A stretch of DNA of 64,000 bases from Octopus vulgaris (Eukaryota). Under the pieces are notes generated by a model. That model saw only the letters and a program-made list of their open reading frames with translations. It did no database searches and had not been told where the DNA came from. Location: NCBI GenBank assembly GCA_951406725.2, contig OX597816.1, forward strand, positions 16,616,001-16,680,000, read 5' to 3'. Shown here one piece after another: positions 10,018-35,503 of this stretch; the first letter of the stretch is position 1; every line of letters begins with the position of its first letter. The position numbers and the translations under genes are program-made.

Positions 10018-10171
10018 CTATAATAATTGATGTGGGGTACTGTTCGAAAAAAATATGGGTACTTCTGCTTGTTGTTTAAAGAAGCAGCACCAGCACTGTA
10101 GCTGACGATTATCATATTAAAGTGTTTGCTAATGGCTGCAATTGGTTCAGCTTCATCAGTACAACCAGGAC
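10018..10171 (-). CDS. Next internal coding exon of the same VFT-domain receptor (VKR-like)
   Basis: Minus strand: tttttattgtAG, 154-nt exon, donor GTGAGT. Phase 1 to phase 2. Translates to (G)PGCTDEAEPIAAISKHFNMIIVSYSAGAASLNNKQKYPYFFRTVPHINYY, containing the GPGC, SYSA and YPYFFRT VFT motifs. Joins the 35342-35503 exon to make ILGPGC. EPIA..SKHF recalls insect VKRs (from memory). Confidence 0.95.
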
Positions 10172-11436
10172 CTACAATAAAAATATATTAGGTTACATTA
10201 TGCGCAATATACAATGAAAGCTTTACAAACATGGGTTGTATTTAACAGTTTTGTTTATGATGTCTTTGTAGAGTTAAGAACATTCAAAAAGGAAACTTCT
10301 GGAAGTGATATTTATTGTTTCCATTTTGAAGAATAGCTTTAGAAGACTATTTTTGGTAGGACATGTCATAATGGCATTTGATCAGAGAAAACACAGAATC
10401 TATTAGCTCCGTATCAATAAGTGGGTTACTTGTTGTAAATGTATTTATTTATTTATTTATTTATTCATCCAAATGTTACAAATACAAATGTCAAAGTGAT
10501 TTATTTACTTCCTGTTGCTTCTTTGCAATATCGAAGTCATGGTATTGAGTTATTCTTAAAAAAAAAAAACCAAAAAAAGAAACCACAAAAATTCCAGCAT
10601 TAAACACACAAAAGATGCCAATCTTCAAATGATCCTTTCAGCCATTTTGAATTATTTTTAAAATCACAGTCTCACTTAATGAATAATATCTGAAGACCAT
10701 GTGAAATGTTAACAGTTAAGCTCTAGCTGTTTTTCTTTATCTTTTTTTTTTTTTTTTAAATTCTTTTCTCTCAGCCTAATCTTATTAAGAATTTTCAGTT
10801 CAATGGACCTCAGAAGGAAATTGTACACCAGAGCTGTTGCTTAAATTTAGCATGCGAAGATGCATCAAAAATCTGTAAATCTGCCAAGAGTTAATGCATC
10901 AGATCCTACACTGCATATACCGTTATTAACTGGGATCTTCACGTTGAATCAACGGGCTAGTTTGTTTTCTAAATAATGCACTAACTTATATAAATACAAA
11001 GAAAAGCACTTAGGCAACCAATCTGAATAAGATACAATGCTCTACATACAGAATATTCATAATGCCTTTCTTGGCATTTACATTGTTAAACGTTAAAAAT
11101 CTATTTTGGGAGAGTCTGTGGTATATAATCAGACATGCCATTAATAACAGAATGAATGTCAGTTTTATTTTTAAGGTATTTTACTCCATCTAAGATTTAT
11201 TTAAAATTCAATATGCTCTTAATTTATTGTTTTCTTTTTGCGGTTTTAACTATTTCATTTTCGACTAATAATTACATAAAATGCAGTCATAATCCATGTT
11301 GGTTTTTCAATTTTAAAGTTTCTAAATCATTGAACTGTATGGCTACTTGCAGGTAATATCTGACACACTTTATATTAATGTTCATGTTGTTTCTCATGAA
11401 CTAGTCTTGACAGACATATAAAATGACCTTATATAT

Positions 11437-11483
<47 letters not shown>

Positions 11484-11679
11484 GTATATATATATACATT
11501 ATTTATTATATCATATACGTTTTTATTATTGTCTTTTGCAATTTACTTAATCATTGATGATGATTAACATTTTATTGTTATTTTAATTTTAATATTTCTA
11601 TTATATGTAATTTTCTAGATGGTGTAATTTAAATGTTCATTTTGAATTGATAAAAGGTGGTTTTTTTACTAATTATAAT

Positions 11680-12050
11680 CCAAACATGAAAACACAAAGA
11701 GAAAACACAACAACGCTAGGACGTGAAAGAAATATCGTATTATTAGACACTCACGAAGGAAGGGAAGAAGGAGGGTTTAACATTTCGTGCGGAGCTCTTC
11801 GTCAGAAACATAAGAAAAGGAAAGATCCAGAGAATGGAAGACGGAGGAAAAAAAATCGCCAACGGTACACACACGGTCACATCGAAGATATATATATATA
11901 TATATAACGGGAAGCTTTATGAAAATAAACAAAAGACGAAGGCAGGTGGAGCACTAACAAACAAATGTATTAGTATAGCCCTCAGGAATAGAAAATGTCT
12001 TTTGCATTTCGGGCCCATGCTCTTCGACAGAAAGATACACAGAAAAAAAC
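11680..12050 (-). mobile_element. Two Penelope-type terminal fragments, each with a degenerate minimal hammerhead motif
   Basis: Minus strand CUGACGA-A-GAGC-UCC-GCAC-GAAAUGUU (11778-11805) and CUGUCGA-A-GAGC-AUGG-GCCC-GAAAUGCA (12000-12034); embedded in (TA)n. Confidence 0.6.
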
Positions 12051-13234
12051 AAATATATATATCTTCGATTTCTCATTCCTCAAATGTGACTGATCCCCTG
12101 GTTCTTTTAAATAAATGCTGTGCTGCTTTCTTATCGCAAAATTATGTCTTAGTTACATACCCACTAACTTTTCATCTCATTTATGCAATATTCAAAAAGT
12201 TAGGAAAATATTATTAAAAATTGATTGATGAAATATTAGAGCTGTTTTGGTATTTACACTGCTTTTAATTAATCTATTCATCTCGTTTGAGTCTTTTATT
12301 CTTCTGTAAACAATACTGTACACTTAACTACACAATCTATTAGCAATATTTGTGAATAGCAATGAAGATTACATTATTCTGACTCCATTAAGTAGCAAAC
12401 ACTGTGACTAGTTCAGCAAGAAAATTTTTCACCACTAGTAATTTTGAAGAATAATATGAATTGTGTTATTAGAGCATTTTCCTTCCTTTGTTCTCCAAGA
12501 AATAACCAATATTGTTCAAGTTAAATTCATTTATGAATTTAAGTTTGTAGCAACATTATTTTTGTAATTATTTTCCCTTATGGAGAATGCATTTCTAAAA
12601 CAAGTAATAATTTTCGATTCAAAGCAACAGTGAACATTCTTAAAACTCAGCGTTGTAAAATCAGTTGTTAAATGGGGTTTAGTTAAATGGAAAATTACAT
12701 ATATAATGAATTCTATTTTAGTGATAGAGTTGTAATGCAAATATAAAATTATAAAAACATAAAAATAAGATAGAGGAACTTCAGCTATAAGAATTGGCAA
12801 TGTTAAACAATGAGGAGGATGTATTTGGTCTTTGAAGAACTGTTAATTAAATTCTATCTTTAAAGTTACAAAAGTTTATTTCTAGTCTGAAATTTGCCTC
12901 TCACATTCTGAAACTACTTTAGGGGTATTGTTAGCAGCAAAAGTCCAACTGGAGTAGAAGCAATACTCCAACTTACATAACATGGTACCATGTAACTACA
13001 AAACTCATTTATTCACAACAAAATTAAAAGAATAAACCCAAAAATCTGTTAAGAGGTAGAATTGTTAAATAACACACAGATCATTTGTACTCTTCCTTCT
13101 ATAGCTCACAAATGAAACACCAAGAAATTCCTTCCAACTTTGCAAACCTAATAACATAAACACATGCTTAGCTATCTCTGACTACAAAGAACTATAGCAC
13201 TAACACAGTCAAGAATTACTGACAAGACAATGAA

Positions 13235-13539
13235 GATTCGCCTTACTGGCACCTGTGCCGGTGGCATGACCAGCATTGCCTTACTGGCACCTGTGCCCTG
13301 TGCCGGTGGCATGTGTAAAAGATTCGAGTGAGGTCGTTGCCAGTACTGCCTGACTGGCCCTGTGCCGGTGGCATGTAAAAACACCCGCTACACTCTTGGA
13401 GTGGTTGGCGTTAGGAAGAGCATCCAGCTGTAGAAACTCTGCCAGATCATGATGAAGCCTGGTGCAGCCATCTGGTTCACCAGCCCTCAGTCAAATCATC
13501 CAACCCATGCTAGCATGGAAAGTGGACGTTAAACGATGA
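13235..13539 (+). mobile_element. Family C
   Basis: Same core with several 5' modules. Confidence 0.82.
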
Positions 13540-14689
13540 AAACAAAAAAATAACTATATGTTCAATAATTGAAACTCATTTTCACTTAGAAATCAGCTGG
13601 CCTATTCTAGTTCACAACAACACAACATCAGCTTAAAACAAATAGAACAGCTGCATACTACCTCCAGTGTTATCTAAGTACTACAAGGATTTTTTTAAGA
13701 GTTGATATAATGAGATTTGGTACATGACAAATCTTTCTGAATTTTTGACATTTAAATAAAAGGAATAGCAATAATTTTGAAAATTTTTCTTCGAGGCAGG
13801 AAAAGCTTGGAAAAATGTTAGTAAAAAAAGAATTTTCAAGAATTGTGATAATTCTTTATATTTCAATGTTTTAACGGAGTATATTCTATAAAACATTGAC
13901 AATTTTATTCATGGTATGCTGGGGGCTTGAAGTAGATAGAACCTGCGAAAGAGAGAAGCCTAAGAAGACTTGGAATTAAGTGAAGCTGAATTTCAAGAAG
14001 AGAACCATGATAGTTAGTGACATGATAACTATTTTGCTATGCTTACACAGGTGGGTGTGCACAGGTAGAGCAACCATTGTAAACACTACAAAACAATAAT
14101 TACCACTCTTTATCCTCTACTACATATAACAAGTTGTATTTTAGGTGTTACTCATTAATTATTACAATTACTCTACCTTTATTTTTTACCCATCATCATT
14201 ACCATTACTTTGTCTCTACTCACTTCCATCATGATGCCTATGGAATGAGGGCTGTCACTGAAACTGTCCCCACCCTCCACTGCTAAACATCATTCTATCC
14301 TTCATGTGACTCTTAATTCACAACCCCGTCTCTTATTGTAACAGATTTATATTGTCATCCTCTTATGCAGTTCAAGAGGATTTCTATTTACCGTTCTAAC
14401 ATTAATGAATGTGAAGCTAACTCTGCCTTTCTTACATTATTCCCTTCTCCTGCCACTCTTACCATAACCCACCTCTGTTGCTATCCATCATTCATGCCTT
14501 CTTACCAAGATACATATATACTGCTATCCCTTCATGCTTCTCAGACTGTTTTTCAATTCAATTTCCTATCAACTACCAACAACCACCACCATATAATTAC
14601 AACTCTCTATTCTCTTTTACTCCTCTACCATTCCTCATAGTCCCTATTCACACTCTTGGTCATCCCTCACTTCCTTTCCGCATGTCTTA

Positions 14690-14882
14690 ACAGTTTTGGG
14701 GAAGGGGGCAAGTCGAATGTATGAATCCCAGTGCTCAACTTGTATTTTTTATTGACCCCCGTAAGGATGAAAGGCAAGTCAACCTTGGTGGAAATTTTTA
14801 CAAAATTTTTTCTAAGTAAAAATGGATGAAATTCTGCTAAGCATTTTGCCTGATGTACTGATTCTGCCAGCTTCCCGCCTTA
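14690..14882 (-). mobile_element. SINE family B, decayed
   Basis: Core and head recognisable. Confidence 0.7.
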
Positions 14883-14984
14883 GACATCTATATATTCTTT
14901 TCTACTCTAGGCACAATAGAGAACTTCTTAGTCTTGCTAAGGACAATAGCAACCTTCCTAGTTTTGATGCCATGATAAAATATC

Positions 14985-15181
14985 TCTGCTGCAGTAGAAA
15001 GAGGTGTAGGAACCGGATGAACCATTTATCCACCTCTTTCAAGAAATTTAGCCCTTCTGTTGACCTAGCTATTTTCTCACTCCATCTAGCAGGTATCTCA
15101 TCAATTCTTGGAGCTATTAATGTTATCACAACTATTATTAATATATGATGAGAAGGAATATTAATAGAACAACTCCCCCTA
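14985..15181 (+). pseudogene. COX1: NUMT: nuclear fragment of mitochondrial cytochrome c oxidase subunit I
   Basis: In the invertebrate mitochondrial code it reads [23 protein letters not shown] / (frameshifting deletion) / [43 protein letters not shown], which is the COX1 barcode region. Confidence 0.96.
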
Positions 15182-15985
15182 CACTCTATAAAGTGACTGG
15201 TTTTTGGCGGAGACAATATGCCATAAAGAAGGCCATTTAGTTTTGTCAAGGACAGAACTCAACAAGTTCTTTAATGTTAATCACATGATAAAATGAACTC
15301 AGTACAGTTTGTAATGCATTAAGTGTTTGGAAGGGTATCCAGCACATACCAAAAAATGGAACACACAGGAGAAGTGTGGACAATTGGTATATCTATAGGA
15401 TCAGTAATTCTGGATAAAAACCTGACATGAACCAGGATGTGTGTAGGTTTTTCTATTCATGATTTCCATACTGAGTGGTGCATGGTGTTTTTGAGAAATG
15501 CACATCATTACATATTTCTCCAGTTCACTCAGCAGTAAATGAGTGACAGAATGGCATCCTGTTCAGTCACTTTTATGTCATGGAAACCAGGTGATTGCCC
15601 CTATGAGTCCTAGAACTTGAGGTAGTGATGTCCAAGGGATGATGATGATGATGATGGACCAGGATAACCCATTCAACCCATTCTAGCATGAAAAACATAA
15701 ACGACGAGAATGATGATTATAGTGCATTTGACTTGACATTTATGGGAAACACTACTCTTCAGGAAAATTCATTGCTAATTGAAAGAATATTAAAAGTAAA
15801 GAATTATTATTTTTTTTAAATTGAAAGGTAAAAAATTATGTATGATTAAATCAAAGTTGAATATTTCTTTTCCTTAAAGACAGTTGTTCTTAAAATATAG
15901 GTCAAGATCCACCAAGAGGAACATGTAAGAAAACTTTCATGGAGAAATTTGTTCAGTTTGGTTATTAGATGATGAAGATGATGAT

Positions 15986-16158
15986 GATCATCATCATTTA
16001 ACGTCCGCTTTCCATGCTAGCATGGGTTGGACGATTTGACTGAGGACTGGCAAACCAGATGGCTACACCAGGCTCCAATCTGATCAGGCAGAGTTTCTAC
16101 AGCTGGATGCCCTTCCTAATGCCAACCACTCCAAGTGTGTAGTGGGTGCTTTTACGTT
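15986..16158 (-). mobile_element. Family C, 3' part
   Basis: Reverse complement of core and tail. Confidence 0.8.
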
Positions 16159-17149
16159 TATACATAAAACAATAAACTTAAAATACACATGCAAGAAAAT
16201 TAGTCTACAAGATTTAAAATGCAAGGATGGAATTTAAACTGAATGAGAATAAAACAACAGCAAGATAGACTACCTCAGTTCAGTTCTCGTTTAGCTCTTG
16301 TTTCATCCTCGCTTTTTTTTTTTTTTGGTGCAGTAAGCATTTAATGATTGCCATATAGAAATATTTGATGTTGATGCAAATGAATATTTGCTTAGAAGAT
16401 GTTTCTATATTTTGCTATCAATGTTCATTTTTGTTGGGTGAAATGAAGTCTTGATTTTATAAAGGTTTCAACATATTTGGACATTGTGTTTGTTGTCTAA
16501 GAAAAAGAAGTGTTTTGGGAACAGAGTAAAAATGATATAGTTGTTAGTCTAGAAATATATTAAATGCAAATAGTGAGTCGTATTATTAAGTAGATGCTTT
16601 TTGAGATAATCTAATTGTGATAAGTATGTACTTTACATATAATATCCACCAATAACGAGAAAATTTCTCAATTTTCTAGGATAACTTTATGTCACATAAA
16701 AATTAATTCAATAAATATTTAAACAAAATTTTAAATGTCTTAATTTTGAATTATTACAGAATTTAAATATTCGTTAATAGAAATGCATCTTGAATAATAT
16801 ATGCTGGATACTGTTTTAAATTTTATTTTCAGAATGTTATTAGAAAGTGTACTGATGGTTGCTTCTGACTGGATCCTTTGGAGGAGGTGCCAGAGGGCTC
16901 TATCCCAAAGACCATCCCAGGAATAATGGGAAGAGAAAATGAAAGGAATGGATGGACGGAATATTAATTAACTATTTATAATGTAAAATTGAAAATACTA
17001 CTCCAAGGATAAATCATTAAATCTGTCACAGAATATGAGAGAAAAATAAAGATGAATGAGCAGAATAGTTCTTGCAGGCTCTGGAATAATTAACGGGAAT
17101 TGAAAAGCGAGTGAAACTATAGAGGGAGAACAATCCCTTGTATAAAAAA

Positions 17150-18092
17150 GAAGTGCAATGAATCTGTTTTGCAAAAGGGATTTACTTTCGTGCCTAGCTA
17201 TAAAGAATACTATCCTGTCTACTTAATTTGTAATGAATATTTAGTGACTGGAAATATGAAGCAGCAAAATCAGAAAGATATCTTCATGCTACATGTTTCC
17301 AATACAGATTAGTCTTTCAGTGTTCTTTGTTTTAAAGATTACTGAAACAGGTATTTTTGGAAAATCATACATTGGTGATTTTTTATTACTCACAAGGGGC
17401 TATACACAGAATGGGACAATACAAAACAAGAGAAACATAAACTATGGGGAACTTAAAATACAAAAGACGATGAATTAAGACAAAAAAATTAATGAAAACG
17501 AATGAAAATATGAAAAGATATAAATGAGGTGCAATGCCCACTTGACCCCTGAAGTTGAGTGGTTATGTTTCGGCAATTTTTTTGCCTTTTTTTCATAAAT
17601 GAATTTCACAAAAATTACAAAGGAATTTTTTTTTAAAGTCTCTCATAATCTATTATGGTAGGTGGGCTTTCATGTAGCCGACACCATTTCACCAATTTAA
17701 CGTTCTGTACGAAGCCCTCCATGAACCATACATTGGTTTATGCCAAATGCTTAAGAGAAACATTCATTTTTACAAGGTAAGAACTTAACAAAATAACTTG
17801 GGTTATTAATGGCAGATGGAATCACAGAAATTGCTCATGGAAAGACTGAAGAGAAATAAAGAAAATTCCACTAGCAATGTAAGTACTCTTTTACTTGTTT
17901 CAGCCATTTGACTGTGGCCATACTGGAGCACCACCTTTAGTCGAGCAAATCGACCCCAGGACTTATTCTTTGTAAGCCTAGTACTTATTCTATCGGTCTG
18001 TTTTGTCGAACTGCTAAGTTACGGGTACGTAAACACACCAGTATCTGTTGTCAAGCAATATCAGTGGGACAAACACAGACACACAAATGTAT

Positions 18093-18124
<32 letters not shown>

Positions 18125-19982
18125 TATAAATGAGGGTGAAAAATCGATATTAATTTAATAATACCATTAATTTAACACCAAGTGGCTTAGCACAAAAAAC
18201 TACGGAGAAAATACAAATTTATACATAAATTATTAGAGAGTTATCCACTATGTGGATAACTCTAGTATGTTGATTCTAGTATGATCTTCTGTGGTTGCTT
18301 CGGAGCTATTTTTAGCACTAGAGTTATCCACATAGTGGATAACTCTCTTAATTTATATATATATATATATATATATATACTAGGGCTTCTTTCAGTTTCC
18401 ATCTACCAAATCCACTCACAAGGCTTTGGTCAGCCTGAGGCTATAGTAGAAGACACTTGCCCAAGGTGCCACACAGTGGGACAGAACCCAGAACCATGTG
18501 GTTGGTAAGCAAGCTGCTTACCCCACAGCCACTCCTGCACCTATGTGTGATGCTTACAGCACCTAGGTTTCCCAAGCAATCACCCGAAAAGAACCGGTGC
18601 TTTCAACGTGATGTGGCCCTAAGTGTAGTGTAAAAGAATTACAGAAGTTAAGAATAAACAATTTCTGCAATTCATTGAAAGAATTAAAAGAACTACTAAG
18701 GTGATTAAGTTTGATGAATTGACCAACATTACAAGTGCAGCTCAACTTTTGATATTTGTCAGATTTTCATGTAAAAACAGTGTACATAAAGGATTAACTG
18801 TTTTATCGATCATCTGATGAAAAGACGCCAGGAGAAGTTTTATCAAAGGAGACTGTTTTTTTAAAGGAAGTAGATGTAGAATAAAATAACTGAGTTGGTG
18901 TATGTAGTGAGAGTACAACAAGAAAAAATATTAGGATCTTAAAGTTAAATTTGCATACAATGCATTGATAACATTTCCTGGCATGATTCATTAAATGGCA
19001 TTAGAGGCTTAAAAAGTTCTTCAGATCTAAATGTGGTAATATAAAGTAATATAAGAAGCAATTAATTATTAATTTCCTTAAAACTCCTTCATTGAATAGC
19101 TGTTTTTGTGTAAATCTAAGCCGGAATATGAGATATGAGTTCATTAAATTTTTCCTGAATTCAGAAGTGTTAAAGGGATAAAGTTTGAAACATCTAATTG
19201 ACTGAAAATAAAAATAAAAATAAAAAGAAATCTCCTCATGAAAAAAAAAACAAAAAAACAAAACAAAACAAAAAATTACCCTCAAATCTTGCAGAAATTC
19301 CTTCATGATTAGAACTGGCTGTGAAAATTACGTTATTTGTCAGACATATTTGAGAAGTTTAATGTGTACGTCTCTGAAAGGTGTGAACACAATCATTTTT
19401 ACAATGAGAGATAAAAGTGAAGTGTTAATGAGCAAACTGAACCTACATACAGTGCAAACGATAGACATGCAGTATTCATGTACTGATGATTTTATCTATG
19501 AAAGTAATTTAACTTTTAACTTGATTAAAGTCAAACATTTGCTGTATCTGAGAAGAAACAAAACAATTCTGCAAATATTTTCTACCAGACATAGACAATA
19601 GTAAATTAGATTTGATCTGAATCCATACACTGCAGCAATGGAACAAGTGAAATATTGTTCTTTAAAGGATGAAGAAAAGTTTGATGAGCGATCATGCAAT
19701 TCTTGTTTCAAACTTGATTTTTTTTTTTTTTTTGAAGTAAAGAATTTGAATGCTTCTCAGTTGAATGCGAAATCAGAATTTCCAATATCAGGATTAGTAA
19801 ATGGTAGCTTTCCACCATTTTCTTTTACGTTTTTCTGTAAATTTGCATTTTATGTTTAATGGCAAGAGATATATCACTCAACGAATACAGTAACAGAATT
19901 CCCTTAAGAATATCATTGACTAACATTATGCCATATTTTGATGTACTGTGCCAAAACAAACAGGCACATTGATCCTTACTGA
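17150..19982 (+). mobile_element. Decayed hAT transposase, Charlie/Buster (ZBED5/SCAND3-like), interrupted by younger repeats
   Basis: Collinear broken motifs: GFTF..YPVYLICNEYL..GNMK (BED-like), KIPL, VGVCSE, YLSDIFEKFN/SLKG, PFSFTFFCKFAF (dimerisation domain), terminal LRISLTNIMPYFDVLCQNKQAH. Confidence 0.8.
17885..18544 (-). mobile_element. SINE family A with an insertion in its central (TA)n
   Basis: Both halves present, separated by foreign sequence at about 18125-18355. Confidence 0.88.
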
Positions 19983-20142
19983 CACTATCTCTCTGTCTAT
20001 CTGCCTGCTTGCCTACCTACCTACCTACCTACCTACATTATCTTTCTGCTTGCCTGCCTGACTGCCTACATAACAGGAAGCTTTACGAAAATAAACAAAA
20101 GAGGAAGGCAGGTGGAGTACAAACAAACAATTGTATTAGTAT

Positions 20143-20352
20143 GTATTTCTTTATTGCCCACAAGGGGCTACACATAGAGGGGACAAGCAAGGACAGACAA
20201 ACGGATTAAGTCGATTACATCGACCCCAGTGCATAACTGGTACTTTATTTATCGACCCTGAAAGGATGAAAGGCAAAGTCGACCATGGCAGAATTTGAAC
20301 TCACAACATAGCAGCAGACAAAATACCACTAAGCATTTCGCCCGGCGTGCTA
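20143..20352 (-). mobile_element. SINE family B inserted in a Penelope-type fragment
   Basis: Splits the 20070-20490 repeat, which is contiguous at 11905-12050 and 38100-38292. Confidence 0.82.
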
Positions 20353-20380
20353 GGCGCTCAGGAATAGAAATAAAACAAGT

Positions 20381-20416
20381 CTTTTACGTTTCAAGCCTAC
20401 GCTCTTCAACAGAAAG
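20381..20416 (-). ncRNA. Minimal type I hammerhead-like motif in a Penelope-type fragment (20070-20490)
   Basis: CUUU-CUGUUGA-A-GAGC-GUAG-GCUU-GAA-ACGU-A-AAAG: stem I, stem II and a palindromic ACGU stem III. Confidence 0.55.
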
Positions 20417-22467: not shown

Positions 22468-22496
<29 letters not shown>

Positions 22497-24545: not shown

Positions 24546-24588
<43 letters not shown>

Positions 24589-24595
24589 TATACAT

Positions 24596-24646
<51 letters not shown>

Positions 24647-24670
24647 TATGTATGAATGTATATGTATGTC
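24475..24670. repeat. (TA)n/(CA)n compound microsatellite
   Basis: Direct reading. Confidence 0.95.
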
Positions 24671-25762
24671 TTAAACTGTGTATATAATATAAAGGGGAAG
24701 AGGAGAAAGGAGGTTTTTGTGAAATTTTGTTTGGTGTAAAAATTATTAATGTAGGTCAATCAAATATGAGAGAAAACTGTAGACAAAACATGAATACAGA
24801 TGAAAAATAAATATTTTTTTCTCTATTCATGAGATTAATTTTGAACGTATTGAAAAAGAAAAATGAAATCTTTTTGTCTAACTTTTACGTCAATGTATGC
24901 ATGGGCAAACAGACTTGCACACGTCTGTGTGTGTTTGTGTAGGGGGTTGTTGTTTTGTCAGAGAAACTGTACCAAGGCCACTGTAGGTCCTCTTAGGTGG
25001 TGAGAGACTGATGTGGTTAATGTTCAACTTGAACATCAACAATTTGGTGTCTTTAAGGAATATATGAACAGAGAATTACAGAGAGTGGTATACAAAGGAG
25101 GGAGAATTGAGCAAGAACCCAGTTTAGGATTTGTGGATGAGAAATAGTAGGGTTAATGAAAAAAAAAGGGGGCAGATACAGTGTCTCAGCTTGAGTGAAG
25201 GTGGTATTGAAGCTGGTTAATTCTGAAGACAGATGTTATTTAGAGTTTTGATAGAAAAACACTGAGGGAAGAAAATGCAAAACTGTAGGCTAGATTTCCT
25301 AGTCTTGGATGAATGAAGGTTTGCCAATCAATCAGATATTACAGTGACGTAACAAGGGGTCTTAGCCCCTAGGGCCAACATGATTTTAGTTTCATCACCT
25401 TAATTAAAAAGTATGATAGGCAAGAGGAAATTTTTTGAACCTCTTTACATTTGAGCCTGTGGCAATTACTGCCTCTTCATCTCCACTCTCTTGCTTTGCC
25501 TTTGATACATAATGTGAGATATTTTGTGTGCAGAAGATACTTGAACTGTACTATAATGTAGGTCATACTTGAATATTTTTAAGTGTCAACGTACATGATT
25601 GCTCAACAGGTTATTTGTAGAGTCTTGACTGTTTTATTATGGAGGGATTCAGAAATTTAGATGACAGGCAATAGAAACTTAGGATGGATTTAGGAACAAA
25701 ATGAAAGATTCATGCTGAATACACACATTCAATACTTGTTTTCAACTGAAGTACTAATTCAT

Positions 25763-25764
<2 letters not shown>

Positions 25765-25813
<49 letters not shown>

Positions 25814-25876
25814 ATTTATATATATATATGTATATTATATATATATATATATGTGTATATATATATATATATTTTT

Positions 25877-25955
<79 letters not shown>

Positions 25956-25956
25956 T

Positions 25957-26027
<71 letters not shown>

Positions 26028-26051
26028 ATATTAATCTACTACAAGTATATG

Positions 26052-26117
<66 letters not shown>
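25765..26117. repeat. Long imperfect (TA)n microsatellite
   Basis: Direct reading; source of the YI-repeat ORFs. Confidence 0.95.
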
Positions 26118-26673
26118 CCATATACCAGGCGTGCACTCTCAGGTATGCAAGGTATGCGTTGCATGCCCTGTGATTTTTTTATCCATATGATCGGAAAATT
26201 AGATAAAATAGTTACTTTGTTTCAAAGAAAATCCCTCCAGTTGTATTTTGTCTCCCCTTCCCTCTCAGTGACTCTACTTCTGCTTTTAGAAGTCATGCTT
26301 TGACAAGACCAGCATATTAGACACTCCCTCTCTGTCTCAGTTTGTTCTTCCTTCCTCCCTCTCTCTCTCTTAGTGACTGTTTAAAAGACATGCTAAGAGG
26401 ATAGGGCATTTGAAATATTTTTACCCCCTTCCTCTTTCTTTTAGTGGCTATGCTGTGGGACCTCCCTCTCTGTCTCTTAGTTTGTCCCTCCTTCCTCTCT
26501 CTCTTTTAGTGAATTGATAAAACAGATGCTAGGAGGAAAGGTTGTTCATAATATTTTGTACCCCCTTCCTCTTTCTCTCAGTGGCATGTCATGCGATGAG
26601 CTGACCGCATGATACCCACTTTCTGTATCTTTCTGTTTTGTTGAAATTGACTTACAATTTACGCTGGCGCTTC

Positions 26674-26716
<43 letters not shown>

Positions 26717-26729
26717 CTTTATAACTCTC

Positions 26730-26942
26730 TCTTTACTCTTTTACTTGTTTCAGTCATTTGACTGCGGCCATGCTGGAGCACCGCCTTTAGTCGAGCAAAT
26801 CGGCCCCGGGACTTACTCTTTGTAAGCCCAGTACTTATTCTATCGGTCTCTTTTGCCGAACCGCTAAGTGACGGGGATGTAAACACACCACCATCGGTTG
26901 TCAAGCAATGCTAGGGGGACAAACACAGACACACAAACACAT

Positions 26943-26993
<51 letters not shown>

Positions 26994-27160
26994 TACGACG
27001 GGCTTCTTTCAGTTTCCGTCTACCAAATCCACTCACAAGGCTTTCGTTGGCCCAGGGCTATAGCAGAAGACACTTGCCCAAGATGCCACGCAGCGGGACT
27101 GAAACCGGAACCATATGGCTGGTAAGCAAGCTACTTACCACACAGCCACTCCTGCACCTA
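26730..27160 (-). mobile_element. SINE family A, full length, nested in hAT element
   Basis: Complete, CpG-rich copy. Confidence 0.9.
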
Positions 27161-28033
27161 TTGTTATTTCTATTTATAACAGTGAAGGTGTGAAATGCTA
27201 GCTGCTTCTTCTTCTTCTTGTTGCAGCTATTGTATGGTTTTGCTTTTGGTTTGTCATTTGTTTTTTTGCTTATTTTTTTCCTTTTGTATTGAAGATTTCT
27301 TGTTGTCGTAGTTGTTGTTGTTGTTGTTGTTGTCGTTAACAACAGACAGTAAATGTTTTAAATAGGTTTTAAGGTAAATATTTAAGCTTTTAAAAGAAAA
27401 ATGCGGAAGATCAGCTTGTGAGTTAGTGTGTGTGTGTGTGTGTGTGTACGCGTGTGTGTATTTGTGTGAGTGTTTGTATGTGTGTGAGTGTTTGTATGTG
27501 TGTGTTTGGATATGTGTGCGTGCATGCGTGTGTGTGAGTGTGTGTTTGTATTGGTATGTGAGTGTGCGTGTGTGTCAGTATATAAGAACAGCCTTTTACG
27601 AAATGAGTGAAATGTGTTATAAACGATACTTTGAGAAATAGTTTTTCGAAAGGAGAATTCGATGGAAAATAATTAATTATATCGGTGGGAGACCAACACC
27701 GAAAAGGGCTAATGCATTAGATAACATTGTAAAAAAAGATTTCCGAAGGCTTATTATTACCACAAAGGAAAATTATCATTTCATAATCAGCCTTTTTGAG
27801 CACATCATTGAAAATCCTGAACCATGGGATGATACCACCATAAATTCAGCAATTGGATTCTTACAAACTTTAAAAGCTCCTGATTTCTTATTTTTGTTAG
27901 AAGTATTCAGTGAGATTTTTTCTTTTTTCATATTTAACATCCTCCAGAGTAAAAGTCATGACATAGTGTATTGTAAAGATCAAATAGATAAAACTAGAAC
28001 TGTACTCGAAAACAAACTTGATAATTTTTCAAT

Positions 28034-28353
28034 CTCTTTTACTTGTTTCAGTCATTTGACTGCGGCCATGCTCGAGCACCGCCTTTAATCGAGCAACTCG
28101 ACCCTGGGACTTATTCTATCGGTCTATTTTGCCGAACCGCTAAGTAACGGGGACATAAACACACCAGCATCGGTTGCCAAGCAATGCTAGGGGGACAAAC
28201 ACAGACGCACAAACACACACACGCATATATATACATATATACCACGGGCTTCTTTCAGTTTCCGTCTACCAAATCCACTCACAAGGCTTTGGTCGGCCCA
28301 AGACTATAGTAGAAGACCCTTGCCCAAGGTGCCACGCAGTGGAACTGAACCCG
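28034..28353 (-). mobile_element. SINE family A, 5'-truncated, nested in hAT element
   Basis: Matches the other copies; head missing. Confidence 0.85.
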
Positions 28354-29634
28354 GGGGAAAAATATGGAGTCGATGCAGGAATCGGAATTCAGAGATCCAA
28401 GAATATATCTATTGAGCCCCAACGACATTATAAAATGCTTTATAACAAAATTATCAGTACAATAGTTGACCAAATAAAAGCACGATATTCATCCTTAGAA
28501 GAGTTTAAATTCATGGAACTTTCGAAAGAAATTCATTGCATGCCCAGCCCCGGAAGTCACTGCACGCCACTGACATATACATATAATGTTATCACTAACT
28601 ATAAGTTAACATCCACCACAAGGTCCAGTCCTTGTTGTGATGTGGTGACCTATAAGCCCCACTGACGCTGAAACCTATGCCAGCAGAGTGTAGGCTCCAG
28701 AAACTCCTATGTTCATCATCATCATCCAGTGTTTTAAATCTGGGTTTTGTAACCATTAACAGGGGTCTTCCTCAGTGCCATAGTAACTGCCCTCACACCA
28801 TCTCGCTCAGTTTTGGACGTTTTCCTTTTTTAAACCAACCCTCCCAATCTCCTACCCCACCTGTCCCCTCCACCTTTTCCTCGGTCTATCTATGTTGGAC
28901 AAGTCTAAAGAGAGAAACCAAACCAATATGAGGTAAAAATGGGTTTGTGTAGGAATAACAATCTTAGATAAAATGCTAAGTTATAGAAGCAGTGACGACA
29001 ACTGAAAACCAACAAGACCTAGGAGAGAAGACAGACCAGAGACAAGATCTGTGGAGAAGAGTCATCAACAGTCTCTGCTCCATATATCAAAAAATGTATA
29101 TTACATATATATAGTACTATAATTACCTATAAATCAGCAAATGATAAAAAAAATATATAAACAATGTATGTAAAGTATACAAAAAAACAAAAGCAAAACA
29201 AAAACATAATATAAACACTAATTTTCCATACTAGAACTAGATTCAATGCATCAGTTGCATATAAGCCATTAATTCTCTAAAAACCAAATCACTGACAAAT
29301 CATTTCTGAAAACAGAAAACATCATCTACGTGAAAATATTTCCAATAACTATCAAACTTGGTTTTGTTTCATTATTCGTATAAGACACAATTTATAAAAA
29401 TAAGAATTTTATAATTACACATTTCAAAATTGTGCTAAATCAATAGTATACAAATCTTCCTATATCTCTTAAATATCTTCTCAAGAAAAAAAAAAAAAAT
29501 AAAGGTTTATTCTATAAATTACAAATTGCGTATAATATCTTGGGACGGTCATAATACCAATAATAAACATCTACACACTGGTTCTATTTTACTTCTTTTA
29601 TCATTATTATTACTATTGTGTCAAGTACATCAAC

Positions 29635-29928
29635 ATCAAAAAATCAAATGGAAATTGTAGTTGTGATACTTGTGCCGGTGGCACGTAAAAAGCACCACCT
29701 GTATGTGGCCGATGCCAGCGCCGCCTGGACTGGCTTCCGTGCTGGTGGCACGTAAAAAGCACTCACTACACTTATGGAGTGGTTGGCGTTAGGAAGGGCA
29801 TCCAGCTGTAGAAACATTGCCAGATCAGACTGGAGCCTGGTGCAGCCTCCTGGCTTCCCAGACCCCAGACGAACCATCCAACCCATGCTAGCATGGAAAA
29901 CGGACGTTAAACGATGATGATAATGATG
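29635..29928 (+). mobile_element. Family C
   Basis: aaatcaaat leader, 2 modules, core and tail. Confidence 0.82.
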
Positions 29929-30208
29929 AATTCATTAACATTCAACCAATTAACTAATCAGTTTGAATTAATCAACTAGATTTGTCAAACCTCTTTCATC
30001 ATCATTCCTAACCTCTTCGCTGCCTTCTTTACTGCAGTTCTGCCTGTTTCTTAGGCTGGATACAAATTTCTTGCTTTTTATTCTATTTTCAGTCATTCTT
30101 TTGTCTAAAGAATCAAACTTTTATGGCATGAAAATCTGTACAAATATAATCTATTGTATTCACTGGTAATTCGAAGCAATCTCTAAGACATATTCTAAAA
30201 GCTTTACT

Positions 30209-30827
30209 ATGTTGTTGCTGCTGTCTGTTCCTTCTCGAGCTATGCCAGGCTCATAAAGGTCAGTTTCCCAGTTTCATTGGCATACAGGTACCCCACCTGG
30301 ACGGGATGTTAGTCCATTGCAGGTGAGCTGCTAGATGCAGGAGGAAAGAATGAGAGAAAGCTGTGGCAAAAGAGTCAGCAGAAGTTTGCCATTACCTTCT
30401 GCTGGAGTCGCGTGGATCTTAGGGGTTTCACTCATAAACACACACATCACCCAGTCTGAGATTCGAACCTGTGATCCCTCAACCACGAGTCCACTTCTCT
30501 AACCACTAGGCCATGTGTTGCTGTTGTCTGTTCCTTCTTGAGCCATGCCTGGCTCATAAAGGCCAGTTTCCCGGTTTCATTGGCATATAGGTTCCCCACC
30601 TTGATGGGACACTGATCCATCGCAGGTGAGCTACTAGATGCAGGAGGAAAGAGTGAGAGAAAGTTGTGGCAAAAGAGTCAGCGGAGGTTTGCCATTACCT
30701 TCTGCCGGAGTCACGTGGATCTTAGGGGTTTCACTCATAAACACACACATTGCCCAGTCTGAGATTCGAACCTGTGATCCCTCAACCGCGAGTTCACCAC
30801 TGTAACCACTGGGCCATATGTCTCCAC
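30209..30827 (-). mobile_element. Tandem dimer of tRNA-derived SINE family E within one 12-bp TSD
   Basis: Two ~305-bp copies; aaaagctttact at 30197-30208 and 30828-30839; minus-strand head tggcccagtggtta...ggttcgaatc. Confidence 0.88.
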
Positions 30828-31349
30828 AAAAGCTTTACTGTAGTCACTATCATTGTTGCTATATTTGCTATGAGAAGCAAGTGATTATCACAACATCAAG
30901 ATACTACCATATTTATTTACAAATAATACAGATTTATATATAATATAATGAAAACCACTAATTACGAACTATCAAATGCCAGGAAAAAATATTTCTCATA
31001 TATTATGCACACTATTTGTCTTTAGTTCTATGTCTGCTAGATGTAATGTAATTGCATTGACAAGAGTTCATATATCTTCAAACAATAAACAAATTCGAAA
31101 GTGACCTTTGAACTTTTCTAGTCTAGCCTGCAAAAGTCTATCTGCCGTGAGGAGTCTATTAGCATGGAACATTATATAAAAAAAATATAATACAGAATGT
31201 AAACACTTTCATTATACTTCCATTTAAATACTTTTACCATCGAATCTATGTATTCTCTCACTATAAACATACATGGTGATGGTTTATTTTATTAATGACA
31301 ATATTTCAAGAACAAATGTTTATCTTTTTTTTTCCTGTTTATAATCACA

Positions 31350-31737
31350 GTAGCAGTATCGCCCGGCGTTGCTCAGGTTTGTAAGGGAAATAACTATAAA
31401 GCATTTTTAGAGAGTTATAGCCAAAAAATAGCAAAAAAATGGAAAAAATTATGGTAAATTTTTTTTTGAGATTTAAAAAAGGTGGAGTTGCGTCCCCTAG
31501 ACAGTTTGTGGTTTGTGTTTGTGATTCTCGACCCCATGTCGAATTTATCGATTTTTTTCAGAACTGGGGAACTTTTCAAAATTTTCACTGCGTTAGTTTT
31601 GAATTATGACATTGGGCTATGTGTGTGTCAAGTTTCATCAGAATCGGTTGAAAGCCGTGGTCAGGGTGAGGGTACTAGCAAACAGACACACAGAAACACG
31701 CACAGACAAACTGCCGTTTATATATAGAGAGAAGAGA
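31350..31737 (-). mobile_element. Non-autonomous Helitron
   Basis: About 90 bp nearly identical to 8403-8492, including the hairpin; A|TC start at the other end. Confidence 0.75.
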
Positions 31738-32014
31738 TTTCAATAATGATACTATCTTAATTGACTATTTATTCCCATATATCTCATATACTTAATTTAC
31801 CCCTTAACATTTAAACCAGCCATATTTGGCCCAGATCAGCTTTATGTTCAATCTATTCAGATCCAGCCTCTTACACTTACCCTGCAATGTCTTTCTAAAA
31901 GTAAGCATTCACACCATTGAAGTCTTGAAGCTATGAGACAATGCACAATTAGTTTAAAATAATGTGAATAAAAGGAGCATTGCACTTGACAGAGTGATAG
32001 AAGTAATTCCATAG

Positions 32015-32322
32015 AACCGGCTTCTGTGCCAGTGGCACTTAAAAGCAACATTCGAGTGTGATCATTACCAGCGTCGCCTTACTATTAAGAGCACCATCTG
32101 AGCGTGATCATTGCCAGAGTTGCTATCTGGCTTCCGTGCCTGTGGCACGTAAAAGCACCTACTACACTCTCGGAGTGGTTGGCATTAGGAAGGGCATGCA
32201 GCTGTAGAAACTCTGCCAGATCAAGATTGAAGCCTGGTGCAGCCATCTGGTTCACCAGCCCTCAGTCATTCGTCCAACCCATGCCAGCATGGAAAGTGGA
32301 TGTTAAGCGATGATGATGATGT
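32015..32322 (+). mobile_element. Family C
   Basis: Modules, core and tail. Confidence 0.8.
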
Positions 32323-32579
32323 ACCAGTTGTGCTGACTCTTTGATACATTATCGCTATCACAGAAAAAATGTAAAATACTTAATTGCGATTTTACATAAT
32401 CTTTAAGCCTTTGTAAGCTTGGACAATAGATGCAAATAACTTGTATCTGACGCTGCTATCCTGAATATGGCAATGTAGTTGATGGGGTAAAAATGTGTTA
32501 CATTTATTTTTTGAGTATAATGCACACCCCTAATCATCAACATGATCATCATTTAGCATTTACTTTCCATACTGGTAAG

Positions 32580-33103
32580 TCAAAGTCAAATCGAATCAAA
32601 TCAAAATAGATGAACATCAATGGAATTTGTATCCTTGTGGTACCAGTGCCGGTGGCACATAAGAAAACCATCCGAATGGGACCATAGCCAGTACCGCATT
32701 GACTGGCCTCCGTGCGGTGGGCACGTAACAAACACCATCCGATCGTAGCCGTTCGCCAGCCTCGTCTGGCACCTGTGTCGGTGGCACATAAGAAAACACC
32801 GAAAACACCATCCGAGCGTGGCCGTCTGCCAGCTTCGTCTGGCATCTGTGTCGGTGGCACATAAAAAAACATCATCCGAGCGTGACCGTCTGCCAGCCTC
32901 GTCTGGCACCTGTGTCGGTGGCACATAAAATCACCCACTACACTCTCGGAGTGGTTGGCGTTAGGAAGGGCATTCAGCTGTAGAAACACTGCCAGATCTG
33001 ACTGGCCTGGTGCAGCCTTCGGGCTTGCCAGACCCCAGTTGAACCATCCAACCCATGCTAGCATGGAAAGCGGACGTTAAACGATGATGATGATGATGAT
33101 GAT
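32580..33103 (+). mobile_element. Family C, long copy with five ~60-70-bp 5' modules
   Basis: Leader, tandem gtg(c/t)cggtggcac...gccag..ctggc modules, core, (gat)n. Confidence 0.88.
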
Positions 33104-33367
33104 GTATGGATTGGATGGTTTGACAGGATCCAGTGAGCTGTGTTGAGCTCCAAATCAGCTTTGGTGTGGTTTCTGCAGCTGCAGGGGCTTTCTAATGCCA
33201 ACCATTTTACAGTGTGTTCCAAGTTTTTTTCATGCCATCAACACAAATGAGGTCTGCTACGAGCTCTAATATTTATGCTTAAAAATTTAGTAAAAAAAAA
33301 TGTGTATTGTAAGCAAATATGGTAAACACACACACACACACACACACAAAAATGCCTTCATAAAGAA

Positions 33368-33758
33368 CTAGCAGTATCGCCCGGCGTTGCTCGGGTTTGT
33401 TTCGACCCTTTAGAATTGGAATTTTTGAAAAGTAAAAATTTTTGCATTATGTAGCTTGTTATTCTCTTTTTTGAACATTTTTCTGGTTGAAATACACCGA
33501 AAAATAGCGACAAAGCAGGCAAAAAATCGTAAAAAATAGGGATTTTCATAGAAAAAAAGCACCTTTTTGATGTAAATAATTTTTGGTGTTAACATGGTCC
33601 GATTTGAATTTTTCTTCTATGGAAGGAAGAGCAAGCCTTCTTCTATCATACTCTCAATTTTGGTCAACTTGCACTGCAAGGTCTCAGAGGAGATAGTGTT
33701 AGTTGAAGGCTACCAAACCTGCCATGCACAGACAACTTCAGCTTTATATATAGAGAGA
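33368..33758 (-). mobile_element. Non-autonomous Helitron
   Basis: Same terminal hairpin and CTAG as 8402; A|TCTCTCTATATATA start; different body. Confidence 0.78.
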
Positions 33759-35341
33759 TTAGTATTAGATGAGTAATCTATTCCTGATAAATGGTAACTC
33801 TGTCATATATATTAGAGTAAATTTCTCCATGAATCAGATTATCAGACTAAATATCAAAACAAAGCAAAGATCCGTTCAATAACTCATGCATGAATTTTAC
33901 AGATAAGATAAAGATATGCAAATTTTGTAGATCCCATTAACTCTCCCTCCCTCATATTTATCTGTACTTAATTTTAAAGTTGTTGCTTGTGCATACAATC
34001 TTTTTAGATAAAGGTATCTGCACATAAACTGCCAAAATTAAGTTCTTAAGAAAAGTAAACAGCATATATATCAAAACTATTGAAAAGGCTGCAAGACACA
34101 CCAAAAATTTTAGGACAATAAAAATAAGTAAAAAGTGGAAATTTTACCGGTGAGTGTGTTACATAATAAGGCAGAAAAAGAAAATGACTCTCCCCAGACA
34201 CAACAGAATATGCTTCAACACACGAACTCAAATAAAGAATCTTGCAAACCAAATCCAAAAACGAAATATATATCATACTTATTGAATAAAGAGTCACATG
34301 GCTTTAGGATCTTCTGCAACAGCTGATTATCACATACATGTAATGTGTGATGTTGCATGATAGTGAACATTGAATTCAGATGTGTAATATCAAATTGCAT
34401 GGAAGGCAGTGCTCAGATGAGCTAAGGAAGCAACTGGACATTAACGTCAGCAGTTAATGTGAGTAAGAGAAATGATTCTACTGTTATTGATATGAGGTGA
34501 AAGAATAATACCCAATGGATTAAAATGTGTTGAGGAAAGTATCTGGTTGTGCTACGGAATGGATCTGTGATGTGTACTGACAGTGATAGGAATTTGTAAG
34601 AGAAGAATACAAAGACAAGGGAAAAATTTGTGATATGAAATTTCAGGATGTTGTGCCTTACAGATACGATTGTATAAGATTAAGACAACATGAAAGTTCA
34701 TTCAACTCATGCTAGCATAGAAAAATGGATGTTAATGAAGCCCTGTTTATTTAATGTTTAATAAATAATGCAACATGTGAATATTGAAGATAGATACTTT
34801 TATCTGATAGACCTGAAATCTATTGTTCAGGATATTCCCTTTCATGAAAACCAGCAGAATTCACTTTGATATGAAGAAGATTCTGGTCTATTTGATGAAG
34901 TATTGTTCAGGTTTATATAGCATTATTGAAAACAACATAGTTTTTCTATCTTTTAAATACTTTTTTAACAGATTCAAATATATTTTTATTCAATGGATAA
35001 GCAATGATTTTTCAAAACTCATGAAGGAGAAATAAAACATTTTTATGTATTTTCTCAACTGAATAGGTAGTTTTACCAGAAGATCATAATCATCTGTTAT
35101 TCTATTATTGATTGATAAATGGGAGAATTAATATTCTCACTAAAAATATATCTGTCAGTTGTTTTTATTTGGTTTAATATTTATGTTATTATTTGAAAAT
35201 TTTGACCGAAAGAAATGATTTATCACTGGAATCCATATTAATTTTACAGTGCAGTCAGATAATTTAAAATTTTTAAAAGAAGAAGAAGCAGGCTGAAATA
35301 AAATAGAATAATTTTTATTCTGAATGACTGAAATTACTTAC

Positions 35342-35503
35342 CGAGAATACCAGCAATAGGAATAGTGGTATTTGTAGCTAAGTCGATAAATGAACGCATG
35401 GCTACATCAGTTCGACATTGAGTATCCTTTATTAAAAGCTTTAGCTCATGATTTGGCAGGACATTAGTGTCTGCATTCACCCATTCAATAGCCATTTCTG
35501 CAC
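35342..35503 (-). CDS. Internal coding exon of a Venus-flytrap (ANF-receptor) domain receptor, most likely a Venus kinase receptor (VKR)
   Basis: Minus strand: pyrimidine tract ttgttttttcttttaAG, 162-nt exon, donor GTAAGT. Phase 1 to phase 1. Translates to (G)AEMAIEWVNADTNVLPNHELKLLIKDTQCRTDVAMRSFIDLATNTTIPIAGIL(G), matching the MA.E.VN....LP...L.L...D..C pattern of GABA-B/ANF-type VFT domains. Not in the ORF track. Confidence 0.93.

What the first reader, a model, noticed from the sequence alone, without database searches (positions are those of the whole stretch)
10018..35503. Hidden Venus-kinase-receptor-like gene: two exons across a 25-kb intron, absent from the ORF track
Seen: two exons with canonical splice sites and matching phase, giving a continuous 106-aa VFT lobe-1 peptide with an N-T-T sequon. 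Established: VKRs join a class-C-GPCR-like VFT to an insulin-receptor-like tyrosine kinase. They are studied mainly in Schistosoma (oogenesis, amino-acid activation) and Aedes (ovary ecdysteroidogenic hormone receptor) and are absent from vertebrates. Inference: DTQCRTDVAMRSFID and EPIAAISKHF fit VKR better than GABA-B receptors or receptor guanylyl cyclases. I know of no functional study of a cephalopod VKR; a role in reproduction is speculation. The kinase is not in this window.
Basis: partly seen in the sequence, partly recalled or inferred. Interest (0 to 1): 0.75.

Follow-up and report, generated by a model that had tools for sequence, protein, structure and literature searches.

The report
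Octopus Venus kinase receptor, two clamshells
These two exons are part of the octopus Venus kinase receptor, a known kind of invertebrate growth and reproduction receptor that databases list under wrong names; it carries a second, predicted clam-shaped binding domain resembling bacterial betaine binders, and its usual amino-acid pocket is altered in octopuses, so it likely senses a different or additional signal.

Summary
Observation confirmed. Window 35342-35503 and 10018-10171 (minus strand) are coding exons 7 and 8 of 20 in a 655-kb gene. Contigs from three of four runs laid splice them exactly. The gene is not hidden: its 1360-aa product matches a public record letter for letter, named 'guanylate cyclase D-like' (Octopus vulgaris) or 'uncharacterized' (O. 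sinensis). It has a signal peptide, a Venus flytrap (VFT), one membrane helix and an insulin-receptor-like kinase, with no cyclase or 7TM domain, and it groups with the published Lottia VKR. Two additions. (1) Residues 49-398 form a second, predicted type II periplasmic-binding domain (TmoX/DmpX/OpuAC fold, Z 25), found in 89 of 95 homolog hits and invariant among octopods. Its betaine cage is remodelled (first Trp is Arg). The VKR papers I read do not mention it; this scan noted it earlier in an arthropod genome. (2) Octopods replace two VFT residues tied to arginine binding (Ser to Thr, Glu to Gly; both in the window), and cephalopods have FY for the activation-loop YY. Ligand and role are untested. 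New member of a known family, moderate interest.

The parts
35342..35503 (-). Coding exon 7 of 20 (P0003 residues 427/428-481): start of VFT lobe 1
   Evidence: 100% match to P0003; reached by the loose ends of spliced contigs
10172..35341 (-). Phase-1 GT-AG intron, 25,170 nt
   Evidence: skipped in contigs of X1, X5, X9
10018..10171 (-). Coding exon 8 of 20 (P0003 residues 481/482-532): VFT lobe 1 ligand-pocket segment
10158..10160 (-). Thr485 codon, at the position of the conserved VFT serine (S66 of PMC3703292; AgVKR S505, SmVKR1 S466) whose mutation impairs or abolishes L-Arg activation
   Evidence: Ser in 69 and Thr in 12 of 83 aligned rows; Ser in the cuttlefish-like P0002, Thr in the octopod records
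10089..10091 (-). Gly508 codon, at the position inferred to be the conserved pocket glutamate (E92 of PMC3703292)
   Evidence: Glu in 77 and Gly in 2 of 83 rows (octopus and Lingula); numbering inferred from the 15-residue spacing to R107/R523
10044..10046 (-). Arg523 codon (R107 of PMC3703292), retained
   Evidence: Arg in 80 of 83 rows
35364..35372 (-). N-T-T glycosylation sequon (N471) in a variable loop
35504..64000 (-). 3' part of intron 6 (about 86.5 kb; exon 6, which ends the N-terminal domain, lies about 58 kb right of the window)
1..10017 (-). Most of intron 8 (about 10.3 kb; exon 9 begins about 245 nt left of the window; the membrane helix and kinase exons lie 93-149 kb left)

Best explanation
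The two exons encode lobe 1 of the Venus flytrap of the octopus Venus kinase receptor, a single-pass receptor tyrosine kinase whose ectodomain is predicted to hold two clamshells in tandem (an N-terminal OpuAC/TmoX-type domain, then the GABA-B-like VFT) and which likely signals nutrient or hormone state to growth and gonad pathways. SHOWN here: gene model, splicing, domain order, orthology, intact catalytic motifs. PREDICTED: the fold of the N-terminal domain. INFERRED from schistosome and insect VKRs: ligand closes a clamshell, the receptor dimerises or re-orients, the kinase autophosphorylates its activation loop (here Y1104 and Y1109 remain, F1108 cannot be phosphorylated) and drives PI3K/Akt and MAPK. 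INFERRED from residues: octopod VKR is likely a weaker L-arginine sensor than the tested VKRs, and the invariant N-terminal clamshell is likely a working second input or an essential structural and dimer module. My odds: identity as VKR 0.97; N-terminal fold 0.95; N-terminal cleft binds a small ligand 0.5; reduced Arg response in octopods 0.55; main role in gonad or growth control 0.5.
For: All 1360 residues of P0003 map exactly to 20 exons on one strand of G000:C3 over 655 kb. One locus only for the exons searched. Spliced contigs in 3 of 4 runs laid. Pfam: ANF_receptor 427-792, PK_Tyr 944-1208, weak OpuAC 279-385. GxGxxG, VAVK, HRDLACRNCL, DFG and PVRWMSPE are present. The closest solved kinases are IGF1R, insulin receptor and SmVKR2 (7zvs), all near E 1e-81 to 1e-78; an entry labelled EGFR scores higher through two stretches. 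Molluscan clade with LgVKR: support 1.000 whole protein, 0.973 kinase only. N-terminal domain: model pLDDT 91, pTM 0.89; TmoX Z 25.2, DmpX 25.1, ProX 24.5, OpuAC 23.1 at rmsd 2.6-2.9 over 248-274 residues, with the first fold outside this family at Z 10.3; Foldseek E 2e-14. A sequence-only search of the domain reaches bona fide OpuAC proteins and OpuAC-7tm_3 receptors. The domain is present in 89 of 95 hits. It is 100% identical between P0003, O. bimaculoides and Argonauta, against 97.8% and 96.9% for the VFT, and 92.7% versus 83.4% to the cuttlefish-like P0002. A two-domain model of a cephalopod fragment matches GABA-B1 and TmoX together.
Against: No functional data: ligand, kinase activity, dimerisation and tissue are all untested. 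Across phyla the N-terminal domain is less conserved than the VFT (mean identity 33% vs 42%), so its importance may be lineage-dependent. Its cage keeps only two of the four Trp of TmoX/DmpX, so it may bind nothing. Ser to Thr is conservative and occurs in 12 of 83 rows, including ticks and beetles, and R523 is kept, so arginine sensing may persist. [quoted passage not shown] The homolog set was gathered with a query that includes the N-terminal domain, which biases the 89 of 95 count. The trees had no insulin receptor outgroup and used 28 chosen sequences.
Confidence: 0.85

Rival explanations
1. Ordinary VKR: the VFT still senses L-arginine or other amino acids as in bee, mosquito and schistosome, and the N-terminal domain is a ligand-free structural or dimerisation module.
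For: R523 and T524 are kept and Thr can replace Ser chemically. The betaine cage is incomplete. Single VFT Ser mutations impair or abolish Arg activation of full-length VKRs (PMC4038586, PMC6401105), so the VFT alone explains the known pharmacology.
Against: The pocket Glu (77 of 83 rows) is Gly in octopods. Residues at or next to the cage positions of the N-terminal domain are highly conserved across phyla (R58 71/81, H61 68/81, E129 76/81, W131 78/81, R158 75/81, W294 64/81, K331 78/81), which suits a functional cleft.
Confidence: 0.4
2. The N-terminal domain is the docking surface for a protein hormone (neuroparsin/OEH in insects, an unknown IGFBP-like or other peptide in molluscs), while the VFT is an allosteric amino-acid site that has relaxed in octopods.
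For: Mosquito VKR is activated by OEH, and reviews leave open how a VFT binds a large hormone and which hormone acts outside arthropods (PMC4522560; PMC5601475). The domain is invariant over its whole surface in octopods.
Against: Neuroparsins are described as known only in arthropods. No binding was modelled or measured here.
Confidence: 0.25
3. The exons belong to a receptor guanylyl cyclase (the O. vulgaris record's name) or a GABA-B-type GPCR (the best PDB match of exon 8).
For: Database name 'guanylate cyclase D-like'; GABA-B1 is the top solved-structure hit for exon 8.
Against: No Guanylate_cyc or 7tm_3 match at E 0.1; one membrane helix; kinase motifs intact; the protein ends in a low-complexity tail; orthology with named VKRs.
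Confidence: 0.02

Closest known systems
Venus kinase receptors (LgVKR Lottia 109151, CtVKR Capitella 136189, SmVKR1/2, AaeVKR, AmVKR)
   Same: Signal peptide, VFT, one TM, insulin-receptor-like kinase; 47% identity to LgVKR over residues 47-1360; GYxWFLPxWL, C454-region and R107 motifs; intron-rich gene as in other lophotrochozoans; one locus found.
   Different: 655-kb coding span against 3.8-65 kb for the genes tabulated in PMC3703292; FY instead of YY in the activation loop (all cephalopod records); Thr for the pocket Ser and Gly for the pocket Glu (octopods); Phe at Y406, as in other molluscs.
Bacterial OpuAC/ProX-family substrate-binding proteins (TmoX 4xz6, DmpX 7yle, ProX 3tmg, OpuAC 3l6h, ChoX 2reg)
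   Same: Predicted fold of residues 47-401 (Z 22.9-25.2); cage positions TmoX W102 and W222 align to W131 and W294, and F220 to Y292.
   Different: 13-20% identity; TmoX W55 aligns to a conserved Arg (R58) and W177 to a variable position; a Cys-rich insertion of about 38 residues; fused into an animal receptor, not an ABC transporter.
OpuAC-7tm_3 class C-like GPCRs of unicellular eukaryotes and fungi (architecture noted in PMC3971589)
   Same: The same domain used as an extracellular sensor; such proteins are among the nearest non-VKR sequence hits (P0132 E 4.6e-31; Blastocladiella, Hondaea records).
   Different: Seven-helix output and no kinase; mostly no VFT in tandem.
GABA-B1 receptor VFT
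   Same: Best structural and sequence match for the VFT, 27-30% identity.
   Different: No 7TM; different pocket residues.
Insulin/IGF-1 receptor kinase
   Same: Closest solved kinase domains together with SmVKR2.
   Different: Unrelated ectodomain; only one Tyr of the activation-loop pair.

Membership tests
Venus kinase receptor | Extracellular VFT (Pfam ANF_receptor PF01094) | tested here: met
   427-792, E 1.3e-53 (on P0001, 99% identical); on the window's exons
Venus kinase receptor | Single transmembrane helix between VFT and kinase | tested here: met
   only two hydrophobic runs, 1-26 (signal peptide) and 876-907
Venus kinase receptor | Intracellular tyrosine kinase close to insulin receptors, with GxGxxG, VAVK, HRD..RN, DFG, PVRWMxPE | tested here: met
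Venus kinase receptor | Groups with named VKRs in a phylogeny | tested here: met
   molluscan clade with LgVKR and Biomphalaria VKR (1.000 whole protein; 0.973 kinase); outgroups were two other kinases of G000, no insulin receptor
Venus kinase receptor | Typical but not defining (exceptions named in PMC3703292): tandem YY in the activation loop | tested here: not met
   F1108-Y1109; Tyr in 68 of 83 rows at 1108 (9 gaps)
Venus kinase receptor | Typical but not defining (absent in cestode and lepidopteran VKRs): VFT pocket Ser66; also Glu92 | tested here: not met
   Thr485 and Gly508 in octopods; Arg107 (R523) kept
Venus kinase receptor | Ligand-induced dimerisation and autophosphorylation (L-Arg, Ca2+ or OEH) | not testable with these tools
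   needs expression assays
OpuAC/ProX betaine-type binding proteins (N-terminal domain) | Type II periplasmic-binding fold of this cluster | tested here: met
   (predicted model); profile-profile E 3.5e-45 against a set chosen from this query's own hits
OpuAC/ProX betaine-type binding proteins (N-terminal domain) | Aromatic cage of 3-4 Trp/Tyr for a quaternary amine or sulfonium | tested here: not met
   two Trp plus Tyr292 kept; first Trp is Arg58, another is variable; mapped by alignment through P0239, not on coordinates
OpuAC/ProX betaine-type binding proteins (N-terminal domain) | Binds betaine, TMAO, DMSP or choline | not testable with these tools
   needs binding assays
Receptor guanylyl cyclase | C-terminal cyclase domain after a kinase-homology domain | tested here: not met
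   no PF00211 at E 0.1; stop codon follows a 150-aa tail
GABA-B / class C GPCR | Seven-helix 7tm_3 domain | tested here: not met

The most novel reading that the evidence does not exclude
VKRs are two-clamshell receptors: a bacterial-type OpuAC domain with a rebuilt Arg/His/Glu/Trp cleft is an overlooked ligand site ahead of the flytrap. In octopods, where the flytrap has lost its arginine-binding Ser and Glu while the first domain is invariant, this site has become the main sensor for a small zwitterionic or anionic solute that gates an insulin-like kinase.
Probability: 0.3. Interest if true: 0.8.

Novelty: new member of a known kind. Interest (0 to 1): 0.5.

Why it matters
The gene itself is an expected ortholog; correcting its name gives cephalopod work a candidate link between nutrition, growth and maturation. 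The wider point concerns the family. VKRs are pursued as drug targets in schistosomes and as reproduction regulators in mosquitoes, and reviews leave open what activates them outside arthropods and how one flytrap could take both arginine and a protein hormone. A second conserved clamshell gives a defined, expressible 350-residue domain on which to test this. The octopus-versus-cuttlefish pair (93% identical in that domain, differing at two flytrap pocket residues) is a natural experiment.

Tried and rejected
Rejected: receptor guanylyl cyclase and GABA-B identity; chance ORF fragments; further VKR exons inside the window (none); a second VKR paralog among the two best other kinase hits, which have no VFT in their open frames and look like ROR and MuSK/Nrk by recalled motifs (one search used a stricter first look, so absence of paralogs is not shown). 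Inconclusive: a neuroparsin family search of G000 gave one weak match with three stops (E 0.035), not followed up. A PF04069 family search of G000 found nothing even at this gene, so it says nothing about other OpuAC-type genes. No run was listed as RNA on record; X13 gave no cover of exon 8. phmmer of the N-terminal domain against PDB sequences gave only TmoX and OpuAC at non-significant E 0.26 and 0.79. A look-up by sequence in earlier findings was blank. Paper search was swamped by general cephalopod papers and is uninformative. The A-to-G difference at 35357 could not be compared with a DNA run, so editing versus polymorphism stays open. No complex was predicted.
Full report
1. Observation. 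Each exon alone passes the Pfam ANF_receptor cut-off at consecutive profile positions. A profile built from 81 non-cephalopod homologs, run on all 2,820 stop-free six-frame segments of the window, finds only these two (E 1.4e-16 and 6.7e-25; next 1.9). Contigs of runs X1, X5 and X9 (three studies) lie on the exon 10018-10171 with no cover in the adjoining intron sequence; their loose ends match exon 35342 on one side and the next exon on the other. The fourth run, X13, gave no cover. These runs are only guessed to be RNA, but joins across two introns, with one genomic locus found, are best read as spliced transcript. The X9 contig is 7,645 nt, long enough for the whole mRNA with about 3.4 kb of 3' UTR (arithmetic).

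2. What it is. Exon 8 is 100% identical to a 1360-aa O. bimaculoides protein. A member of that cluster, P0003, named 'guanylate cyclase D-like' (O. vulgaris, CAI9719031.1) and 'uncharacterized LOC115209184' (O. sinensis), matches this genome letter for letter over all 1360 residues. It has 20 coding exons on G000:C3, from 17,122,242 down to 16,467,065, a span of 655 kb; boundaries outside the window are good to about 2 nt. The window holds exons 7 and 8. So the gene is annotated, under wrong or empty names. Domain order: signal peptide 1-26, an RYRR site at 35-38, an N-terminal domain 49-398, VFT about 405-850, one helix 876-907, kinase 944-1208, tail. There is no cyclase and no 7TM domain.

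3. Family. A search with the ectodomain gave 95 hits, among them LOTGIDRAFT_109151 and CAPTEDRAFT_136189, which are LgVKR and CtVKR in Table 1 of PMC3703292, and a Biomphalaria 'venus kinase receptor'. In FastTree trees of 28 chosen sequences the cephalopod proteins form a clade inside a molluscan clade with LgVKR (1.000 whole protein; 0.973 kinase only, rooted on two other kinases of this genome; no insulin receptor was available as outgroup). The nearest solved kinases are IGF1R, insulin receptor and SmVKR2; an entry labelled EGFR ranks first through two matched stretches. The defining architecture and grouping are met. Molluscan VKRs have been known since 2013, so this is a new member, not a new kind.

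4. A second clamshell. The 350 residues before the VFT gave a weak OpuAC hit (E 0.005). Among 16 homologs scanned, 5 pass the OpuAC cut-off, 5 fall below it and 6 show none. I folded residues 47-401 with 80 of the 95 hits as alignment; the 15 left out were near-duplicates, partial models or not VKRs. The model is confident (pLDDT 91, pTM 0.89). It matches TmoX (Z 25.2, rmsd 2.6, 272 residues), DmpX (25.1), ProX (24.5), OpuAC (23.1) and ChoX (22.9); the first fold outside this family scores 10.3. Foldseek agrees. A 719-residue cephalopod fragment folds into both domains and matches GABA-B1 and TmoX. A sequence-only search of 1.84 billion representatives gave 349 hits at E 0.001. Of the 49 I scanned from the 150 listed, the set includes VKRs, plain OpuAC proteins and OpuAC fused to 7tm_3, cyclase or channel domains. 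OpuAC-7tm_3 receptors of distant eukaryotes are noted in PMC3971589. A profile of the domain covers at least 70% in 89 of the 95 hits. Three have part of it and three none; of those three, two start inside the VFT and one is a 7TM receptor. The query included the domain, so this count is biased upward. The domain is identical in P0003, O. bimaculoides and Argonauta (VFT 97.8% and 96.9%), and 92.7% identical to the cuttlefish-like P0002 (VFT 83.4%; P0002 matches a Sepia pharaonis fragment at 221 of 222). Across phyla it is less conserved than the VFT (33% vs 42%).

5. Does it bind betaine? Probably not in the usual way. Using the cage residues listed in PMC10087775 and PMC10030565 and alignments through a bacterial-type hit: TmoX W102 and W222 align to W131 (78 of 81 rows) and W294 (64 of 81), F220 to Y292, but W55 aligns to R58 (71 of 81) and W177 to a variable column. 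H61, E129, R158 and K331 are also conserved. This is a sequence mapping, not a measurement on coordinates. It suggests a kept but rebuilt cleft, more suited to an anionic or zwitterionic ligand (inference). I do not file the domain as a betaine binder.

6. Octopus-specific changes. Both lie in window exon 8. Thr485 stands at the Ser whose mutation lowers Arg sensitivity 1000-fold in SmVKR1 and abolishes it in SmVKR2 and Anopheles VKR; the column is Ser in 69 and Thr in 12 of 83 rows. Gly508 stands at the position I infer to be E92 of PMC3703292; it is Glu in 77 of 83 rows. All octopod records have Thr and Gly, the cuttlefish-like cluster has Ser and Glu. R523 is kept. In the kinase, all cephalopod records read FY at the YY pair. 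By recalled insulin-receptor numbering this removes the Y1162 equivalent, the self-inhibiting tyrosine, and keeps Y1158 and Y1163, which could raise basal activity (recalled, no call).

7. Mechanism. Shown: gene, splicing, architecture, orthology, catalytic motifs. Predicted: two tandem clamshells. Inferred from tested VKRs (PMC4026697, PMC4038586, PMC4522560): ligand-driven dimerisation, autophosphorylation, PI3K/Akt and MAPK output. My commitment: a working receptor kinase that reports nutrient or hormone state, with a likely weakened arginine site and a likely functional first clamshell. A reproductive role is about even odds. It holds in schistosomes and Aedes, was not seen on silencing in Anopheles (heading), and ant VKR acts in the brain.

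8. Novelty in print. What I saw: PMC3703292 parts 1-4 of 5; PMC4026697 parts 1-2 of 5; PMC4522560 parts 1-2 of 3; passages only of PMC2680970, PMC6401105, PMC5601475, PMC4038586, PMC9661718, PMC11581030, PMC3971589, PMC10087775, PMC10030565 and PMC9114394. In that text VKR is described as VFT, one helix and kinase; no second domain is named. Searches: 'venus kinase' with 'betaine' gave 0 papers; with 'octopus' 1, both terms in its reference list only; with 'alphafold' 1, listing only; OpuAC with tyrosine kinase 2; periplasmic-domain terms 27, none of the 20 listed holding 'venus kinase'; VKR, mollusc and cephalopod terms 6, only PMC3703292 holding VKR. Vogel et al. 2015 was not held, subscription papers are not searched, and I read no supplements or figures, any of which could show the domain. 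Precomputed Pfam tables already flag PF04069 on 6 of the 95 hits.

9. Verdict. Interest 0.5: the gene alone would merit about 0.3, and the overlooked domain with the octopod pocket changes makes an open question about VKR ligands directly testable.

Noticed in passing
window 35357 (exon 7, codon Ile476): Contig loose ends of runs X1 and X5 read C for T on the + strand, that is A to G on the coding strand (Ile to Val); X9 reads as the genome. Either A-to-I recoding, common in coleoids (recalled), or a polymorphism. Not resolved.
   Followed up: partly
window about 15030-15150 (+), inside the 25-kb intron: A short decayed fragment of mitochondrial cox1 (Pfam COX1, E 2.6e-4, below cut-off): likely a nuclear mitochondrial insertion.
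   Followed up: partly
G000:C3 near 16870354, 16861468 and 16822350 (right of the window): Alternative small exons: two of about 51 nt between the signal peptide and the RYRR site, adding glycosylation sequons (isoforms P0005, P0007, P0008, P0009), and an 18-nt micro-exon in a low-confidence loop of the N-terminal domain (present in P0003, absent in P0010). If RYRR is a furin site, the first two would be clipped off (inference).
   Followed up: partly
G000:C3 17122242-16467065: The first intron is about 291 kb and the coding span 655 kb, ten times the largest vkr gene tabulated in 2013.
   Followed up: yes
window 9800-9964: A repeat just 3' of exon 8 is covered at high depth by many short contigs in all four runs, probably a common transcribed interspersed repeat.
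   Followed up: no
window 3367-3847, 22446-22751, 27642-28088, 57642-58096: Short frames that look like decayed transposase or LINE fragments (recalled resemblance); no Pfam match at E 0.01.
   Followed up: partly
P0165, P0189, P0241, P0259 (one search hits): The same N-terminal domain type is fused to ion-channel, TIR or TRP-like domains in unnamed, probably eukaryotic proteins, suggesting a mobile sensor module.
   Followed up: no
L075:3237-4994 and L076:4978-6207: Two other receptor kinases of this genome with membrane helix and kinase in one long exon; they look like ROR and MuSK/Nrk by recalled motifs. Used as outgroups only.
   Followed up: partly
L077 (G000:C14:33639293-33639484): Weak neuroparsin-family match with three stops inside (E 0.035); could be an IGFBP-type exon or chance.
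   Followed up: no
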